A stretch of 64,000 nt of DNA from Eledone cirrhosa (Eukaryota): positions 62,001-126,000 of the forward strand of contig CAXHJY010000694.1 of NCBI GenBank assembly GCA_964016885.1, given 5' to 3'. Below the pieces are notes generated by a model. That model was not told the DNA's origin. It worked only from the letters and a program-made list of their open reading frames with translations, and did not search any database. Each line of letters begins with the position of its first letter. Position 1 is the first letter of the stretch. Both the position numbers and the translations under genes were made by a program. Positions 3,800 to 13,628 of this stretch are shown piece by piece.

Positions 3800-4121
3800 C
3801 ATACATAAATACACATTGTGACATTTACAGAACAACCTCTACTGTTGTTTTCAAGAGAAAGGGGCTGGAGGGATGGGAGGAGAACTTTTAATAGTATTTC
3901 TATTATTTTCGTTTTTTCTTATTTCTTTTAAAGATATTTTTTTATCTGATCTTCATTTCTTCTCGTAGAAGAGTGTCTTTAACCTTTCTTCCACGGGACC
4001 ACACAGACTACACTCACCTAGTAGTAGGGACCACACATTGTATTCACAATACAAACATCTACTTGAGAAAGGACCTTTTAAAAATTATATATATATGTAT
4101 GTATGTGTGTGTATGTATATA

Positions 4122-4152
<31 letters not shown>

Positions 4153-4265
4153 GTTAAAAAGGACCACACACACACGTACAGATATATATATATATATATT
4201 TCTGTGTATTCATATGCATGTATATATATATATGCATGTGTATGTATGTATGTATGTATGTGTGT

Positions 4266-4299
<34 letters not shown>

Positions 4300-5054
4300 G
4301 TATGTATGTATATGTATATATATGTATGTATATGTATGTATGTATGTATATGTATGTATATGTATGTATGTATGTATATATATGTATGTATGTATATATA
4401 TGTATGTATGTATATATATGTATGTATGTATATGTATGTATGTATATGTATGTATGTATATGTATGTATATGTATGTGTATGTGTATGTATGTATATGTA
4501 TGTATGTATATGTATGTATATGTATGTGTATGTATGTGTATGTATATGTATGTGTATGTATGTATATGTATGTGTATGTATATGTATGTATGTGTATGTA
4601 TATGTATGTATGTGTATGTATATGTATGTATGTGTATATATGTGTATGTATATATATATATATGTGTATATATATGTGTATATGTATATATATATGTGTA
4701 TATATATGTGTATATGTATATATATATGTATATATATATGTATATATATGTATATATATATGTATATATATGTGTGTATATGTGTATATATGTGAATGTG
4801 TATATATGTATATGTATATATATGTGTATATATATGTGTATATATATGTGTATATATATGTGTATATATATATGTATATATATATGTATATATATATGTA
4901 TATATATATGTATATATATATGTATATGTATATATGTATATGTATATATGTATATATATGTATATGTATATATGTATATGTATATATGTATATGTATATA
5001 TGTATATATGTATATGTATATATGTATATATGTATATGTATATATGTATATATG

Positions 5055-5086
<32 letters not shown>

Positions 5087-5133
5087 TATATATATATATA
5101 TGTATGTATATATGTATGTATATATGTATATAT

Positions 5134-5173
<40 letters not shown>

Positions 5174-5294
5174 GTGTATATATATGTGTATATATATGTG
5201 TGTATATATATGTGTGTATATATATGTGTGTATATATATGTGTATATATATATATGTATATATATATATGTATATATGTATATGTATATATGTA
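3170..5294. repeat. (TA)n/(TATG)n/(CA)n microsatellite fields
   Basis: Direct inspection; source of the spurious YIYMCV ORFs. Confidence 0.95.
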
Positions 5295-7571
5295 TACTCT
5301 TTTACTCTTTTACCTGTTTCAGCCATCCGGCTGAGGCCATGCTGGGGCACCGCCCTTGTTGCTACACATTTTATCTCCAGCCTGTATAGGTTGGCCACTG
5401 GTGTAGGAGGGAGTTTGTTGCTGCTGCCCTTAGGTTTCCCTCGTGTCTTGCTGTGGGCTCATCCGGGATCCTGGATAACAAGGTGTCGAGATGTTTCTTA
5501 AAGACATCCACCTCCACGTCATGCAAGTCTCGCAGATGCCTCGGCAGCCTGTTGAAGAGTTGAGGGTCCTTGAATCCCAGGCTATTGCAATACCTGCTCC
5601 TTATTCTAGATGTGGAAGACGGGACCTTTGGCACCACACAGTGACGTCCTGTTCGACGGTTGGTCCAGCTCCCAATGCCAAAGTTTGGTGCTAGTCCCTC
5701 CAGGATTTTCCACATGTAGATCACTGCGTATCTCTCCCGTCTTCGCTCCAAGGAGTAGAGGTTCAGTTCCTTCAGCCTCTCCCAGTAGCTTGTCTCCCTC
5801 ATCTTGGCAATCCTCTTGGTGTAGCTTCGCTGGATTGCCTCAAGCTCTGTGGTTAGTTTGACACTATGGGGTGACCACAGCTGGGAGCAGTAGTCCAGGC
5901 GGCTTAGGACAAAAGTCCTCCACAGTGTCAACATGGTGTCTCGATCTCTTGTAAGGAAAGTCCTCAAGATCCAGCCAGCGAATCGTCTACATGCTGTCGC
6001 CACCTTCATGATGTGTGAAGAAAAAGATGCATCATCGCTCATGTCTATGCCCAGGTCTCGTATCGATTTTGACACGGGGATATCGGTCCCTCCTGGTCCT
6101 GTGTAGCTGTGTTCCGCTATATTTGTGTTTGTGTTTGCAGGTTTGTATTGTAGGGCTTGGAATTTGCCAGCATTAAACTGCATGTTGTTTTCTTCCGCCC
6201 ATCTGTATATGGCATCCAGATCCTGCTGTAAGAGGGCAGCGTCAGCCGGGTTTTTGATTGCCTGTGCTACCTTAGTGTCATCAGCATAGCTAGTGAGGGA
6301 TGTTGTTGCATGCACCACAGAGGGCATGTCCGAGAGAGCCACCAAAAACAGTAGTGGTCCCAGGACTGTCCCCTGAGGCACCCCACTTGTTATCGGTGTT
6401 TCCCTCGAGAGGGCCCCATTTGCTGCGACTGCCTGGCTTCTGTCCCTTAGGAAGCCATGCAGCCACTCACCTACTTTTCCAGTTATGCCGAGTCCGTGTA
6501 GTTTGTGACATATCATTCCGTGGTCGACCTTGTCAAAGGCCTTCGCAAAGTCAAGATATATCACGTCTACATGTGAGCTGTCTAGTAGTTGTCTCAGTAC
6601 CCAGTCGTAGTGATGTAGCAGCTGTGTAAGGCAGCTTCTTCCTGGGCGGAAGCCATGTTGCGTACTAGTCAGGCGGTCATTTTCTTCGAGGAAAGTGATT
6701 AGTTTCTTTCTGACGACTCGCTCCATGACCTTACTGATATGCGACGTCAGGGAGACTGGCCTATAGTTCTTGGCCTCCGCTCTACTACCTCCTTTATGGA
6801 TAGGGCATATTGTGCCTTCTTTCAGCTCCCTGGGTAGTACACCGCTAGCCAAGGAGCTTCTGAAGAGCATCTTCAGTGGAGTTGCTAAGGCCCGCTTACA
6901 TATTTTTAGGAGAACTGCTGGGAATCCATCAGGTCCAGCAGCCGAGTCTGTTCTAATTTCATCAATGGCGTACACCACATCCTCCTCCGTTATGTCTATG
7001 TGGTTGATGGTTGCCATTTCTTGATGTAGTGTTGTGGCATCAAAGAACTCCTCTGGCTTCGTTATTTGCATGTGCCTCAGTGGACATGTGAAGACACTTT
7101 TGTACTGTTCGTTCAGTATTTCACATATCTCTTGGGGATTTTCGGTTAATGAACCGTCCGTGTGTAAGAGTGGTCCAATCTTGCAGTGTACTGAGGCAGT
7201 TTCTTTTGCAAATTTAAAGAAGGCCTTAGGGTTTGTTTTAATGTTTTCTATGGCCCTGTTCTCTTTCCTTGCCCTCTCATTCTCACGTGAAAGCTTGAGT
7301 GCAATCTCGGTGTCAAGTAGTGCACGTTTCAAATAGGATTCCTTCTTGTTTTGGTTTTGTTGACTATTCAACTGGTTTGAGAGTTTAGTTCTACGTCTCA
7401 TAAGGATTTTCCTATCTCTGGGAATAAGATTTTTGTGTCTGTTTGCCTCTTTCTCCGGGACACACTTTTTGCATATGGTGTGTATCGTTGTCATGAAGTG
7501 TTGAAATTGTGTGTTGGTGTCTTGTGTGGCGATGTTTGCACTCCATGTTTGCTTCCGGATTTCACTCTTAG
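5295..7571 (-). mobile_element. CR1-clade LINE, 5'-truncated, young
   Basis: Uninterrupted RT frame, short 3' UTR and (TAAAAGAG)2 tail abutting (TA)n. Confidence 0.92.
5371..7571 (-). CDS. Non-LTR reverse transcriptase (ORF2 lacking the N-terminal APE endonuclease)
   Basis: Motifs [66 protein letters not shown]. The first ~23 aa of the listed 756-aa ORF are read-through from the inverted copy. Confidence 0.9.
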
Positions 7572-8843
7572 ACATGTAGACGTGATATATCTTGACTTTG
7601 CGAAGGCCTTTGACAAGGTCGACCACGGAATGATATGTCACAAACTACACGGACTCGGCATAACTGGAAAAGTAGGTGAGTGGCTGCATGGCTTCCTAAG
7701 GGACAGAAGCTAGGCAGTCGCAGCAAATGGGGCCCTCTCGAGGGAAACACCGATAACAAGTGGGGTGCCCCAGGGGACAGTCCTGGGACCACTACTGTTT
7801 TTGGTGGCTCTCTCGGGCATGCCCTCTGTGGTGCATGCAACAACATCCCTCACTAGCTATGCTGATGACACTAAGGTAGCACAGGCAATCAAAAACCCGG
7901 CTGACGCTGCCCTCTTACAGCAGGATCTGGATGCCATATACAGATGGGCGGAAGAAAACAACATACAGTTTAATGCTGGCAAATTCCAAGCCCTACAATA
8001 CAAACCTGCAAACACAAACACAAATATAGCGGAACACAGCTACACAGGACCAGGAGGGACCGATATCCCCGTGTCAAAATCGATACGAGACCTGGGCATA
8101 GACATGAGCGATGATGCATCTTTTTCTTCACACATCATGAAGGTGGCGACAGCATGTAGACGATTCGCTGGCTGGATCTTGAGGACTTTCCTTACAAGAG
8201 ATCGAGACACCATGTTGACACTGTGGAGGACTTTTGTCCTAAGCCGCCTGGACTACTGCTCCCAGCTGTGGTCACCCCATAGTGTCAAACTAACCACGGA
8301 GCTTGAGGCAATCCAGCGAAGCTACACCAAGAGGATTGCCAAGATGAGGGAGACAAGCTACTGGGAGAGGCTAAATGAACTGAACCTCTACTCCTTGGAG
8401 CGAAGACGGGAGAGATACGCAGTGATCTACATGTGGAAAATCCTGGAGGGACTAGCACCAAACTTTGGCATTGGGAGCTGGACCAACCGTCGAACAGGAC
8501 GTCACTGTGTGGTGCCAAAGGTCCCGTCTTCCACATCTAGAATAAGGAGCAGGTATTGCAATAGCCTGGGTTTCAAGGGCCCTCAACTCTTCAACAGGCT
8601 GCCGAGGCATCTGCGAGACTTGCATGACGTGGAGGTGGATGTCTTTAAGAAACATCTCGACACCTTGTTATCCAGGATCCCGGATGAGCCCACAGCAAGA
8701 CACGAGGGAAACCTAAGGGCAGCAGCAACAAACTCCCTCCTACACCAGTGGCCAACCTATACAGGCTGGAGATAAAATGTGTAGCAACAAGGGCGGTGCC
8801 CCAGCATGGCCTCAGCCGGATGGCTGAAACAGGTAAAAGAGTA
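7572..8843 (+). mobile_element. Second CR1-clade LINE copy, inverted, more truncated, with an in-frame TAG at 7711
   Basis: Reverse complement of about 5303-6574 with about 9 substitutions; single TAAAAGAG tail running into (TA)n. Confidence 0.92.
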
Positions 8844-9395
8844 TGTATATATATACATATATGTATATATATATACATATATGTATGTATATATATACAT
8901 ATATGTATATATATATACATATATGTATATATATATATACATATATGTATATATATATATATACATATATGTATATATATATATACATATATGTATATAT
9001 ATATATACATATATGTATATATATATATACATATATGTATATATATATATACATATATATATATATACATATATGTATATATATATATACATATATGTAT
9101 ATATATATACATATATGTATATATATATACATATATGTATATATATATACATGTATGTATATATATACACATGTATGTATATATATACACATGTATGTAT
9201 ATATATACACATGTATATATATACATATATATGTATATATATACATATATGTGTATATATATACATATATGTGTATATATATACATATATGTGTATATAT
9301 ATACATATATGTGTATATATATACATATATGTGTATATATATACATATATGTGTATATATATATGTATATATATGTATGTATGTATGTATGTTGT

Positions 9396-9957
9396 GTCAG
9401 GTCACCAGTTGGTGCTACTGGTAACATGTATCCGAGTACAACCTGTCCCATGGTCGGGTCGTTGGCGACTAAACTGGCAACCCCACCAAGGTTTCTTGGT
9501 GAGGAGGGTGACTTTGGACATCCTGCAGGATTAAAAACAAAACCTGTCAAAGGGCAAAGGAGCTCTTAAGAGTCAATGGCCATCCAAAATCACTGGGAGA
9601 GATGACCCCTTAGCCTTTGTCAAGGCAGAATTCTAGGAGAAGGAAAACTCTGATATAACACCTGCAACCCTGATGGTTAAGAGAGTGGGACTGGCTTTGT
9701 GCAGTGCCTTTGCTCACTATAAAAGCTTCACGGCACAGGCATTGCTTTATATCTGGAGATCTCTCTGCACTTGTCGTCACATGGTACCATGGGCCCAGCA
9801 CTATGTGTCAATAATTGTCACAGGTGTAGTGTTTGTACCAGAGTTTTCAAGTCGCTGGCTGGACTAAAAAGTCACACTCGTTCAGCGCATTGGTAGGGGT
9901 TCTCCTACATGGATATAAAGTAGTGGCCGTACTCGAAAACGAGTTGGCAGCCACCAT
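9396..9957 (+). mobile_element. Non-autonomous RTE-derived element, copy 1 (about 50-bp internal deletion)
   Basis: Near-identical to 11161-11773; 3' part encodes a C2H2 finger [22 protein letters not shown]; deletion at a TGGT microhomology. Confidence 0.75.
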
Positions 9958-10250
9958 GTATGTATGTATATATGTATGTATGTATATATGTATGTATATA
10001 TGTATGTATATATGTATGTGTATATGTATATGTGTATATATATGTGTATATATGTATATATATATGTGTGTATATATGTATATATATATGTGTGTATATA
10101 TGTATATATATATATATATATGTGTGTATATATGTATATATATATATATATATATGTTTGTATATATGTATATATATATGTGTGTATATATATATATATG
10201 TATATATATGTATATATGTATATGTATATATGTATATATATATATGTATG

Positions 10251-10281
<31 letters not shown>

Positions 10282-10282
10282 G

Positions 10283-10315
<33 letters not shown>

Positions 10316-10320
10316 GTATG

Positions 10321-10384
<64 letters not shown>

Positions 10385-10389
10385 CATAC

Positions 10390-10424
<35 letters not shown>

Positions 10425-10451
10425 ATGTATATATATATATATATATGTATG

Positions 10452-10502
<51 letters not shown>

Positions 10503-10623
10503 GTATATATATGTATGTATGTATGTATATATATATGTATGTATGTATATATATATGTATGTATGTATATATGTATGTATGTATGTATGTATATGTATGT
10601 ATATATATATGTATGTATGTATG

Positions 10624-10655
<32 letters not shown>

Positions 10656-10665
10656 TGTATGTATG

Positions 10666-10696
<31 letters not shown>

Positions 10697-11160
10697 ATAT
10701 ATATATGTATGTATGTATATATATATATATGTATGTATGTATGTATGTATATATATATGTATGTATGTATGTATATATATATGTATGTATGTATATATAT
10801 ATGTATGTATGTATGTATATATATATGTATGTATGTATATATATATGTATGTATGTATGTATATATATATGTATGTATGTATGTATATATATATGTATGT
10901 ATGTATGTATATATATATGTATGTATGTATATATATATGTATGTATGTATATATATATGTATGTATGTATGTATATATATATGTATGTATGTATGTATAT
11001 ATATATGTATGTATGTATGTATATATGTATGTATGTATGTATATATATATGTATGTATGTATATATGTATGTATGTATATATGTATGTATGTATGTATGT
11101 ATATATATATGTATGTATGTATGTATGTATATATGTATGTATGTATGTATATATATTTAT

Positions 11161-11773
11161 GTCAGGTCACCAGTTGGTGCTACTGGTAACATGTATCCCA
11201 GTACAACCTCTCCCATGGTCGGGTCGTTGGCGACTAAACTGGCAACCCCACCAAGGTTTCTTGGTGAGGAGGGTGACTTTGGACATCCTGCAGGACTAAA
11301 AACAAAACCTGTCAAAGGGCAAAGGAGCTCTTAAGAGTCAATGGCCATCCAAAATCAACGGGAGAGATGACCCCTTAGCCTTTGTCAAGGCAGAATTCTA
11401 GGAGAAGGAAAACTCTGATATAACACCTGCAACCCTGATGGTATCCAATGATGTTGACTTGTTCTTCTTTTTGGTAAATATCATCTTGGTTAAGAGAGTG
11501 GGACTGGCTTTGTGCAGTGCCTTTGCTCACTATAAAAGCTTCACGGCACAGGCATTGCTTTATATCTGGAGATCTCTCTGCACTTGTCGTCACATGGTAC
11601 CATGGGCCCAGCACTATGTGTCAGTAATTGTCACAAGTGTAGTGTTTGTACCAGAGTTTTCAAGTCGCTGGCTGGACTAAAAAGTCACACTCGTTCAGCG
11701 CATCGGTAGGGGTTCTCCTACATGGATATAAAGTAGTGGCCGTACTCGAAAACGAGTTGGCAGCCACCACCAT
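11161..11773 (+). mobile_element. Non-autonomous RTE-derived element, copy 2
   Basis: About 610 bp, same 5' end as copy 1, C2H2 finger at 11638-11709, ends 'ggccgtactcgaaaacgagttggcagccaccaccat' into TA repeats. Confidence 0.75.
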
Positions 11774-11774
11774 A

Positions 11775-11840
<66 letters not shown>

Positions 11841-12312
11841 TGTATATATATATATGTATGTATATATATATATATATGTATGTATGTATGTATATATATG
11901 TATGTATGTATGTATATATATATATGTATGTATGCATATATATATATGTATGTATATATATATATATATGTATGTATGTATGTATATATATATATGTATG
12001 TATATATATATATGTATGTATGTATATATATATATGTGTATGTATATATATGTGTATGTATATATGTGTATGTATATATATATATGTGTATATGTATATA
12101 TATGTATATGTATATATATGTATGTATATATGTGTATGTGTATATATGTGTATGTATATATATGTGTATGTATATATATATATACATATATATATATATA
12201 CACATGTATATATATATGTATATATATACATACATATGCATATATGTATATATACATATATATATATACACATGTATATATATATGTATATATATATATA
12301 CATACATATGTA

Positions 12313-12367
<55 letters not shown>

Positions 12368-12376
12368 GTATATATG

Positions 12377-12430
<54 letters not shown>

Positions 12431-12449
12431 CATGTACATGTATATGTAT

Positions 12450-12775
12450 ATATTGTTATACATGGGGAGGGTAATATTGCCAGAATTAATAACAGAGCAG
12501 ATGTGCAACGAAAGATTTATGATAAACTATATATATGTGTTTGTGTCTATATTGTATCTGTATTATTTTTGACCGTCGGTCAGTCTATGGCAACATTGAG
12601 GACCGAGTAAGTTAGATACCGATATAAAAGACACAGAAGCGAGAAGCGAAAACCAACCAAACAGTGAGTGTGTTCTGTTATTAATTCTGGCAATATTACA
12701 CAAATATGACCCTCCCCAAGTATAACAATATTTGTTTCGACACACGATTTCATATAAAAAACCTCGCAAAACTAA
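12450..12775. repeat. Inverted repeat with one-sided tail embedded in (TA)n
   Basis: 12450-12495 is the reverse complement of 12674-12731 (one indel); extra ~45 nt only on the right side. Confidence 0.75.
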
Positions 12776-12920
12776 TATATGTATATATATATATACATAT
12801 ATATACACATGTATATATATATATGTATATGTATACATATATATGTCTATGTATACATATATATATATGTATATGTATACATATATATATATACATGTAT
12901 ATATATAAGTATATGTATAC

Positions 12921-12952
<32 letters not shown>

Positions 12953-12953
12953 G

Positions 12954-13036
<83 letters not shown>

Positions 13037-13048
13037 ATATATATGTAA

Positions 13049-13626
13049 ATGTATCCCAGTACAACCCGTCTCATGGTCGGGTCGTTGGCGACTAAACTGG
13101 CAACCCCACTAAGGTTTTTTGGTGAGGAGGGTGACTTTGGACATCCTGCAGGACTAAAAACAAAACCTGTTAAAGGGCAAAGGAGCTCTTAAGAGTCAAT
13201 GGCCATCCAAAATAACCGGGAGAGATGACCCCTTAGCCTTTGTCAAGGCAGAATTCTAGGAGAAGGAAAACTCTGATATAACACCTGCAACCCTGATGGT
13301 ATCCAATGATGTTGACTTGTTCTTCTTTTTGGTAAATATCATCTTGGTTAAGAGAGTGGGACTGGCTTTGTACACTGCCTTTGCTCACTATAAAAGCTTC
13401 ACAGCACAGGCATTGCTTTATATCTGGAGATCTCTCTGCACTTGTCATCACATGGTACCATGGGCCCAGCACTATGTGTCAATAATTGTCACAGGTGTAG
13501 TGTTTGTACCAGAGTTTTCAAGTCGCTGGCTGGACTAAAAAGTCACACTCGTTCAGCGCATCGGTAGGGGTTCTCCTACTTGGATATAAAGTAGTGGCCG
13601 TGTTCGAAAACGAGTTGGCAGCCACC

Positions 13627-13628
<2 letters not shown>
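13049..13628 (+). mobile_element. Non-autonomous RTE-derived element, copy 3 (5' ~30 nt missing)
   Basis: Near-identical to copy 2. Confidence 0.75.

What the first reader, a model, noticed from the sequence alone, without database searches (positions are those of the whole stretch)
5295..8843. Two CR1 LINE copies fused head-to-head with both 3' tails pointing outward
Seen: a 2.28-kb minus copy and a 1.27-kb plus copy join directly at their truncated 5' ends (junction ACATGT, 7572-7577, itself palindromic) with no host DNA between. Both contain the authentic 3' end, so this is not classical twin priming, which gives non-overlapping pieces of one RNA. The arms differ by about 9 substitutions with no internal indels seen, and by tail repeat number, which argues against a sequencing artefact. 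Inference: both ends of one break in a self-complementary (TA)n target were primed on LINE 3' ends (two RNAs), or the cDNA folded back. The result is a ~1.27-kb inverted repeat with a ~1-kb spacer.
Basis: partly seen in the sequence, partly recalled or inferred. Interest (0 to 1): 0.72.

Follow-up and report, generated by a model that had tools for sequence, protein, structure and literature searches.

The report
Two-tailed LINE: candidate dual-priming insertion
Two shortened copies of one young jumping gene are joined nose to nose inside a TA-repeat tract, likely because both cut ends of the DNA each started copying a separate RNA at once, a route proposed in 2010 for human L1; the join is not yet confirmed by reads.

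Summary
The structure is in the sequence. A 2,274-bp minus copy (5297-7570) and a 1,270-bp plus copy (7572-8841) of a young APE-type, CR1-like LINE meet at their truncated 5' ends, with both tails facing TA-type arrays. The arms differ at 9 of 1,272 bases with no gaps. Public contigs show the long copy's template stops at 7570, so palindromic ACATGT belongs to the short copy alone. The joint is either blunt plus one G, or a 2-nt TA microhomology with a 7-nt slip (chance about 3%). A 4-8 bp direct repeat flanks the pair (weak: 8-22% by chance). Best reading (0.45): dual priming, two RNAs primed on both 3' ends of one staggered cut in a self-complementary target, then end-joined. Rivals: two insertions plus deletion (0.24), one template (0.15), bridge between two sites (0.10), artefact (0.06). 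The mechanism was postulated for L1 (PMC2837659), and two-template L1 inserts are reported in human cells; my searches found no CR1 case. No listed contig spans the junction and no genome was held, so reality and frequency are untested. The scan's earlier notes hold only head-to-tail LINE arrays.

The parts
4086..5296 (.). Left TA/TATG microsatellite array (G-polarised on + strand; no C in 4400-5296)
5289..5296 (+). Left copy of candidate target-site duplication TATGTATA (4-bp core TGTA if the TA at each end is counted as tail)
   Evidence: 8-bp match; 4-bp match; chance 8-22%
5297..5312 (-). 3' tail of copy A: two units of TAAAAGAG
5319..5354 (-). Predicted 3' double stem-loop of copy A (mirror of 8792-8827)
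   Evidence: folded on copy B (z -1.98; 9 of 200 shuffles as good); arms identical here
5297..7570 (-). Copy A: 5'-truncated LINE, 2,274 bp, open ORF2 frame (RT domain, no endonuclease domain left)
   Evidence: template end at 7570
6575..7571 (.). 997-nt spacer of the inverted repeat: the part of A that B lacks, plus one odd base
7569..7577 (.). Head-to-head junction: blunt plus untemplated G at 7571, or TA microhomology (7569-7570) + GACA + 7-nt slip in B's template
7572..8841 (+). Copy B: 5'-truncated LINE, 1,270 bp, premature stop at 7711-7713, one TAAAAGAG tail unit (8834-8841)
8842..8849 (+). Right copy of candidate target-site duplication TATGTATA
8842..9382 (.). Right TA-type array built of about 26 self-complementary ~20-bp units (G and C balanced), unlike the left array
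41232..41285 (-). Third, ~55-bp 3'-end copy of the same family inside a pure (TA)n tract (supports the TA preference; not part of the pair)

Best explanation
Two 5'-truncated copies of a young CR1-like LINE are joined head to head in a TA-type array, likely made in one event by dual priming: both 3' ends of one staggered cut would each have primed reverse transcription on the tail of a separate LINE RNA, and the two unfinished cDNAs would then have been end-joined. SHOWN: two overlapping copies, each with an authentic 3' end facing outward; different tail lengths; no host DNA at the joint; A's template ends at 7570. INFERRED: the endonuclease cut both strands at equivalent ATA/TA sites 4-8 bp apart. 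Because TA is its own complement, both overhangs end in TA-3' and are equally good primers for an RNA tail ending GAGUA, so the second end acted as a normal start site, not as an internal primer. RT made 2.27 kb on one end and 1.27 kb on the other. The cDNA ends joined either bluntly with one added base, or through a TA/TA overlap with a 7-nt slip of the kind polymerase-theta end joining leaves (that signature is recalled, not from a call). The product is a dead element: B has a stop codon and neither copy keeps the endonuclease domain. It has no selected function that I can see; it is a record of mechanism.
For: Both ends are complete LINE 3' ends abutting TA tracts. Tail counts differ (2 vs 1), and B's flank is not the mirror of A's flank, so nothing was copied through the flank. 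One direct repeat brackets the whole pair, 4-8 bp by tail phase; the L2/CR1 peak is given as 3-5 bp (PMC4245944 passage). The family favours TA: 3 of 3 near-identical copies in the window are followed by a TA tract against a background of 31% of positions, and loose ends at the tail end in TA runs in 2 (X7, X15) of the 3 runs that list one. Hints of two templates: listed X1 contigs cover 7 of the 9 arm differences and side with A at 6 and with B at 1; B's allele at 8298 is the majority allele in organism D (83,604 of 88,138 depth in X7) and a minority in X2. Precedent for the mechanism: PMC2837659 section 'Dual priming'; opposite-orientation two-RNA inserts in L1-induced cells (PMC11702581 passages).
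Against: No listed contig or read spans 7570/7572; one search showed only 24 of about 15,800 pieces and 15 of 84 joints, and the runs may be other individuals or species. The direct repeat arises by chance in 8-22% of random array pairings. The array changes type at the insertion (left G-only, right G/C-balanced), which a single target does not predict. The two-template signal is weak: p=0.039 only if all 8 non-A differences arose in B; 2 sites are not covered by listed contigs, and the 8298 site is a CpG that could have decayed in A, giving p of 0.07-0.29 (by hand). The TA preference has a selection bias (only TA-like flanks align there), and X2's loose-end consensus is AT-rich but not clean TA. 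None of the 15 listed joints is a true strand switch, so such fusions are not shown to recur. PMC4245944 found no 5' inversions with zebrafish ZfL2-1 and argues that its ~5-nt overhang may be too short to prime.
Confidence: 0.45

Rival explanations
1. Two separate insertions into the same TA tract in opposite orientation, at different times. The DNA between them was then lost, either as target-site deletion during the second insertion or by later collapse of an inverted repeat with a TA spacer.
For: The region is a landing hotspot: three copies of another short element sit in the next TA arrays (9392-13627), and oppositely oriented copies of a third element share one TA tract at 44629-44989. 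B carries more damage than A over the shared part, including a stop and changes at two invariant residues, as an older copy would. The flanks differ in type. A microhomology-and-slip joint also fits deletion repair.
Against: It needs two insertions of one family plus a deletion that removes every intervening TA base. The bracketing direct repeat is then chance (8-22%). Private-change rates of A (5 of 2,274) and B (up to 8 of 1,270) do not differ clearly (p=0.079).
Confidence: 0.24
2. One template. A's cDNA folded back about 990 nt onto itself through the TA overlap and copied its own 3' 1.27 kb, or both ends primed in the tail of one RNA with strand displacement.
For: A 2-nt TA microhomology with a nearby 7-nt slip can be read at the joint (chance 2.6% within 20 nt). 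The arms are 99.3% identical and share A-type alleles at the other organism-D diagnostic sites listed in the shared part. Tail-primed twin priming on one RNA is proposed in PMC2837659.
Against: A fold-back copy would have to stop after the first tail unit and not run into the second unit and A's flank. The differences are lopsided (6 vs 1 among 7 covered sites) and one B allele is shared with other copies. L1 internal duplications are short (median 22 bp).
Confidence: 0.15
3. A rearrangement bridge. Two simultaneous insertions at two different TA arrays joined their cDNAs, fusing loci and deleting, inverting or translocating what lay between.
For: Bridges with poly(T) at one end and poly(A) at the other, from two L1 events, are described at tumour translocations (10.1101/2024.08.27.596794 section 8). 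The array type switches at the insertion.
Against: The candidate duplication is present on both sides. TATG arrays keep the same G-rich strand polarity on both sides across the window, which an inversion would tend to flip.
Confidence: 0.1
4. Assembly or read artefact (fold-back or chimeric long read).
For: No spanning read was seen. The same window holds a 1.36-kb near-perfect palindrome at 59006-61733 with a ~10-nt loop, 1 substitution and about 10 small indels, which looks like a fold-back artefact.
Against: Fold-back artefacts are defined as returning within 200 bp of the turn (PMC12870357 passage); here the turn skips 997 nt and the far flank is not mirrored. The arm differences are 9 substitutions, 7 of them transitions, with no indels, the opposite of the 59-61 kb palindrome. 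One difference is a known family allele. A repeat-driven misjoin would give same-strand copies.
Confidence: 0.06

Closest known systems
Dual priming (Meyer et al. 2010, PMC2837659; abstract and sections 9-11 read)
   Same: Two RNAs anneal by their 3' tails to the two nicks; two opposed cDNAs meet at an internal junction; the authors expect NHEJ-type repair there.
   Different: It was postulated for primate L1 from loci where one arm was only a poly(T) stretch, and the authors could not tell it from twin priming. Here both arms are long (2.27 and 1.27 kb), the element is CR1-like with an 8-nt repeat tail, and the target is self-complementary.
L1 twin priming, 5' inversion (Ostertag and Kazazian 2001, seen only as cited)
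   Same: Head-to-head internal junction; both DNA ends primed; one duplication around the whole insert.
   Different: One RNA, second primer internal, one tail only, overlap short (median 22 bp). Reported almost only for L1 in the cell assays of PMC4245944.
Two-RNA opposite-orientation L1 inserts and two-tailed L1 bridges (PMC11702581 passages; 10.1101/2024.08.27.596794 passages and section 8)
   Same: Two reverse-transcribed ends ligated or annealed to each other; in the tumour bridges, tails at both ends.
   Different: Somatic human L1 under high activity. The two-tailed cases I read join different chromosomes; whether the cell-line cases have two tails is in Fig. S7, which I could not see.
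Penelope-like elements with an inverted 5'-truncated copy at the 5' end (PMC8557442 passages)
   Same: Inverted truncated copy directly at the 5' end; (TA)n insertion bias in Naiads; present in octopus genomes.
   Different: Different RT class and GIY-YIG endonuclease. This protein's full-length relatives have an APE domain. That paper treats complex tandem/inverted structures as a feature that sets PLEs apart from LINEs.
CR1-clade LINEs; microsatellite-targeting APE LINEs
   Same: APE + RT ORF2, heavy 5' truncation, short tandem-repeat tail after a stem-loop, insertion in simple repeats. Thirteen recently active CR1 families are listed for Octopus vulgaris (PMC13282606 Table 1).
   Different: Clade not placed on a tree; (TA)n preference is suggested here, not established.

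Membership tests
CR1-clade LINE | ORF2 with N-terminal APE endonuclease and RT | tested here: met
   RVT_1 in copy A (E 4e-30); APE domains in 3 of 4 closest relatives scanned, the fourth being partial. The window's own copies are truncated below the APE domain.
CR1-clade LINE | No RNase H or C-terminal zinc knuckle (criterion recalled) | tested here: met
   No other Pfam family at E<=0.001 in copy A or at E<=0.1 in 4 of 4 relatives.
CR1-clade LINE | 3' stem-loop followed by a short tandem-repeat tail, not poly(A) (criterion recalled) | tested here: met
   8-nt unit TAAAAGAG x1-2; predicted hairpins, modest z -1.98.
CR1-clade LINE | RT groups with reference CR1 rather than L2, Crack, Daphne, Rex1 or CR1-Zenon on a tree | not testable with these tools
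   No clade-labelled reference sequences were available from any call; the motif likeness to CR1 is recalled.
Classical twin priming | One 3' tail; inverted piece comes from upstream with little overlap | tested here: not met
   Two tails; 1,272-bp overlap.
Dual priming | Both ends of the insert are authentic RNA 3' ends facing outward | tested here: met
Dual priming | One target-site duplication around the whole pair | tested here: inconclusive
   4-8 bp repeat present; chance 8-22% in these arrays.
Dual priming | Two different RNA templates | tested here: inconclusive
   6 vs 1 among 7 covered sites and one shared allele; p 0.04-0.29 depending on polarity.
Dual priming | Single event: empty allele joins both flanks, no single-copy intermediate | not testable with these tools
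   No genome held; no listed piece spans the locus.
Penelope-like element | PLE-type RT with GIY-YIG endonuclease | tested here: not met
   Relatives carry PF14529/PF03372, not GIY-YIG.

The most novel reading that the evidence does not exclude
A TA-targeting CR1-like family routinely primes both ends of its cut, because a self-complementary target makes the two ends equivalent. Two-tailed head-to-head inserts would then be a regular product in this genome: a germline, long-armed proof of dual priming outside L1, and a LINE-made source of kilobase hairpin repeats like those of Penelope elements.
Probability: 0.2. Interest if true: 0.72.

Novelty: new variant of a known kind. Interest (0 to 1): 0.47.

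Why it matters
How the second DNA end is used during LINE insertion is still open. Dual priming was proposed in 2010 with the hope of later validation, and only that paper holds the term together with 'retrotransposition' in the searchable library. Cell assays suggested that short-overhang LINEs do not prime from the second end. A family that cuts a self-complementary repeat gives a clean natural test: if target symmetry matters, two-tailed pairs should be enriched in TA-targeting families over others in the same genome. A 99.3% identical 1.27-kb inverted repeat would also form long double-stranded RNA if transcribed and could be unstable; neither was tested. As it stands this is one locus, unconfirmed by reads.

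Tried and rejected
Whole-genome count: no genome is held. Metagenome scan for the tail motif: 0 matches. Earlier findings by sequence and by place: none. ACATGT as shared microhomology or hairpin seed: rejected, it lies wholly in B's template. Exact snap-back at B's start: the 7572/6574 register shows mismatches at all of the first 9 flanking positions; only the shifted parse gives 2 nt. The one 'opposite strands' joint listed (6306/7683, X2): rejected as a second fusion, because in element coordinates it is a plain internal skip that maps onto the two arms. Of 17 runs listed only 4 were laid. RNA editing as the source of arm differences: rejected, only 2 of 9 are A-to-G in B's sense. Supplement of PMC13282606: one file, summary tables only, no help with clade. 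Searches for a CR1 or non-mammalian head-to-head case and for CR1 tail criteria found none; bioRxiv supplements and most subscription papers were not searchable, so absence from print is not shown. An earlier count said X1 matches A at 8 of 9 sites; on rechecking it is 6 of 7 covered sites.

Full report
Observation. The largest inverted repeat in the window has inner ends at 6574 and 7572 and a 997-nt spacer. The LINE parts align over 1,272 bases with 9 substitutions and no gaps; 7 of 9 are transitions. The minus copy (A, 5297-7570) keeps an open frame of about 730 codons with an RT domain. The plus copy (B, 7572-8841) is its 3' 1.27 kb with a stop at 7711. Both end in the same 3' sequence, a predicted pair of hairpins (z -1.98) and an 8-nt unit TAAAAGAG, twice in A and once in B, followed by TA-type arrays.

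Element. Full-length relatives at 64-67% identity have APE and RT domains and nothing else in Pfam. The closest named relative is an Argonauta hians protein at 55%. With the microsatellite-rich sequence this suggests a cephalopod host; that is an inference. The architecture and the repeat tail fit CR1 by recalled criteria; I could not place it on a tree. The family is young: seven runs under four organism labels hold half or more of the query's words, and A differs from the main X1 contigs at about 6 listed places in 2.27 kb. Depth at the 3'-most bin exceeds every interior bin in X1, X2 and X7, and many reads stop near 5355-5358, as does a third, 55-bp copy at 41232-41285 that sits inside pure (TA)n. 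All 3 near-identical copies in the window are followed by a TA tract, against 31% of positions at large; an older relative at 34877-34923 fails the same test. In one search, records that align on into the flank read pure TA at 5292 in 92-96% of depth in 4 of 4 runs, but only TA-like flanks can align there. TA preference is therefore likely, not proven.

Junction. An X1 contig follows A from 6265 to 7570 and then continues with unlike letters; an X2 contig does the same, and its 19 loose letters continue ORF2 into the conserved W seen in relatives (translated by hand, compared). So A's template ends at 7570 and ACATGT belongs to B alone. Two parses remain. One is a blunt joint with one untemplated G. 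In the other, the six letters TAGACA at 7569-7574 match B's template 7 nt upstream of its apparent start, giving a 2-nt TA overlap and a 7-nt slip between ACA repeats; random joints give such a match within 20 nt in 2.6% of 200,000 trials. The second parse fits end joining of two cDNAs that both end in TA, and it also fits a fold-back or a deletion.

One event or two. TATGTATA lies directly left of A and directly right of B; with the TA at each end counted as tail the repeat is TGTA. PMC4245944 gives 3-5 bp as the L2/CR1 peak (passage). In these arrays a match of 8 or more with a G or C inside occurs in 8-22% of random pairings, so this is weak support. If real, the two nicks fall at equivalent ATA/TA sites and both overhangs end in TA-3'. 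Against a single target, the left array is G-only while the right one is built of self-complementary units; later slippage could do that.

One template or two. Listed X1 contigs cover 7 of the 9 differences and agree with A at 6 and B at 1; 5770 and 5773 fall in a gap between contigs. B's changes include a stop, two changes at invariant residues and four silent ones. B's allele at 8298 is the majority in organism D and a minority in X2. An equal split is rejected at p=0.039 only if all eight belong to B; other polarities give 0.07-0.29 by hand. This leans towards two source copies, or an older B, without proving either. Only 40 of 324 variant rows were shown.

Reality and frequency. No piece shown spans the junction, but only 24 of about 15,800 pieces and 15 of 84 joints were shown, the runs need not be the assembled individual, and the RAD run covers the spot thinly. 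The one strand-switch joint listed is a plain internal skip. No genome is held, so fusions could not be counted. The window has a second inverted duplication at 59006-61733 with a ~10-nt loop, 1 substitution and about 10 small indels. It looks like a fold-back artefact and raises the prior of artefacts here, but the LINE pair shows the opposite signature: long spacer, substitutions only, unmirrored flank, and a known family allele.

Mechanism. I commit to dual priming at 0.45. The second end of a cut in a self-complementary tract is as good a start site as the first, two RNAs are copied, and the cDNAs are joined. It explains two complete tails, unequal tail counts, the bracketing repeat and the lopsided differences in one step. 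Two insertions plus deletion (0.24) is the main rival in a region crowded with TA-inserted elements. One template (0.15) must stop copying after the first tail unit. A bridge between two arrays (0.10) and an artefact (0.06) remain.

Literature. PMC2837659 (abstract and sections 9-11 read) postulates dual priming and could not separate it from twin priming; it is the only paper in the library with that term and 'retrotransposition'. PMC11702581 (passages) reports nine two-RNA inserts in L1-induced cells, some in opposite orientation; its Fig. S7 was not seen and may hold two-tailed cases. 10.1101/2024.08.27.596794 (passages and section 8) shows two-tailed L1 bridges at translocations. PMC4245944 (passages) found 5' inversions almost only with L1. 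PMC8557442 (passages) describes inverted truncated copies and (TA)n bias as typical of Penelope-like Naiads. PMC12870357 (passages) defines fold-back artefacts. PMC13282606 (passages and supplement search), PMC10294476, PMC10191854 and PMC5668948 (passages) and PMC5907723 (abstract) gave background only. Searches found no CR1 head-to-head case; that library is incomplete.

Verdict. A real-looking, anatomically clean candidate for dual priming in a CR1-like, TA-favouring LINE. It works like twin priming but fails that membership test; it meets one defining feature of dual priming, with two inconclusive and one untestable. It is a new variant of a known kind, at a single locus and unconfirmed by reads. 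Interest 0.47.

Noticed in passing
window 59006-61733: Near-perfect palindrome of non-LINE DNA, 1.36-kb arms, ~10-nt loop near 60370, 1 substitution and about 10 small indels, abutting a 4.5-kb TA array on the left. Fold-back artefact or real fold-back inversion.
   Followed up: partly
window 9392-9955, 11157-11769, 13045-13627 (part copy 45305-45491): Three 96-99% identical ~600-bp copies of a short element, each in its own TA array, all on the same strand; the first lacks ~45 bp. Looks RTE-derived by recalled motifs.
   Followed up: no
window 40470-40582, 44629-44818, 44855-44989, 50569-50760: ~190-bp element in TA tracts, made of a copy plus an inverted partial copy (long internal hairpin); two copies face each other across a 36-bp TA tract. 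Resembles the inverted arrangement of Penelope-like elements; unverified.
   Followed up: no
window 41232-41285; first bin 5280-5360: A ~55-bp 3'-end form of the LINE (just the hairpins and tail) seems very abundant; in X2, 31 contigs leave the element at 5363 into one other sequence, possibly a SINE or second family sharing this tail.
   Followed up: partly
table 5c, run X2 (joints 6136 to 5303, 5349 to 5308, 5351 to 5306): Joints that go back to the tail suggest head-to-tail tandem copies of this family in organism B.
   Followed up: no
window 34877-34923: Older, 85% identical 3'-end relative with a TAAAAGAT/TAAAAGAA tail.
   Followed up: partly
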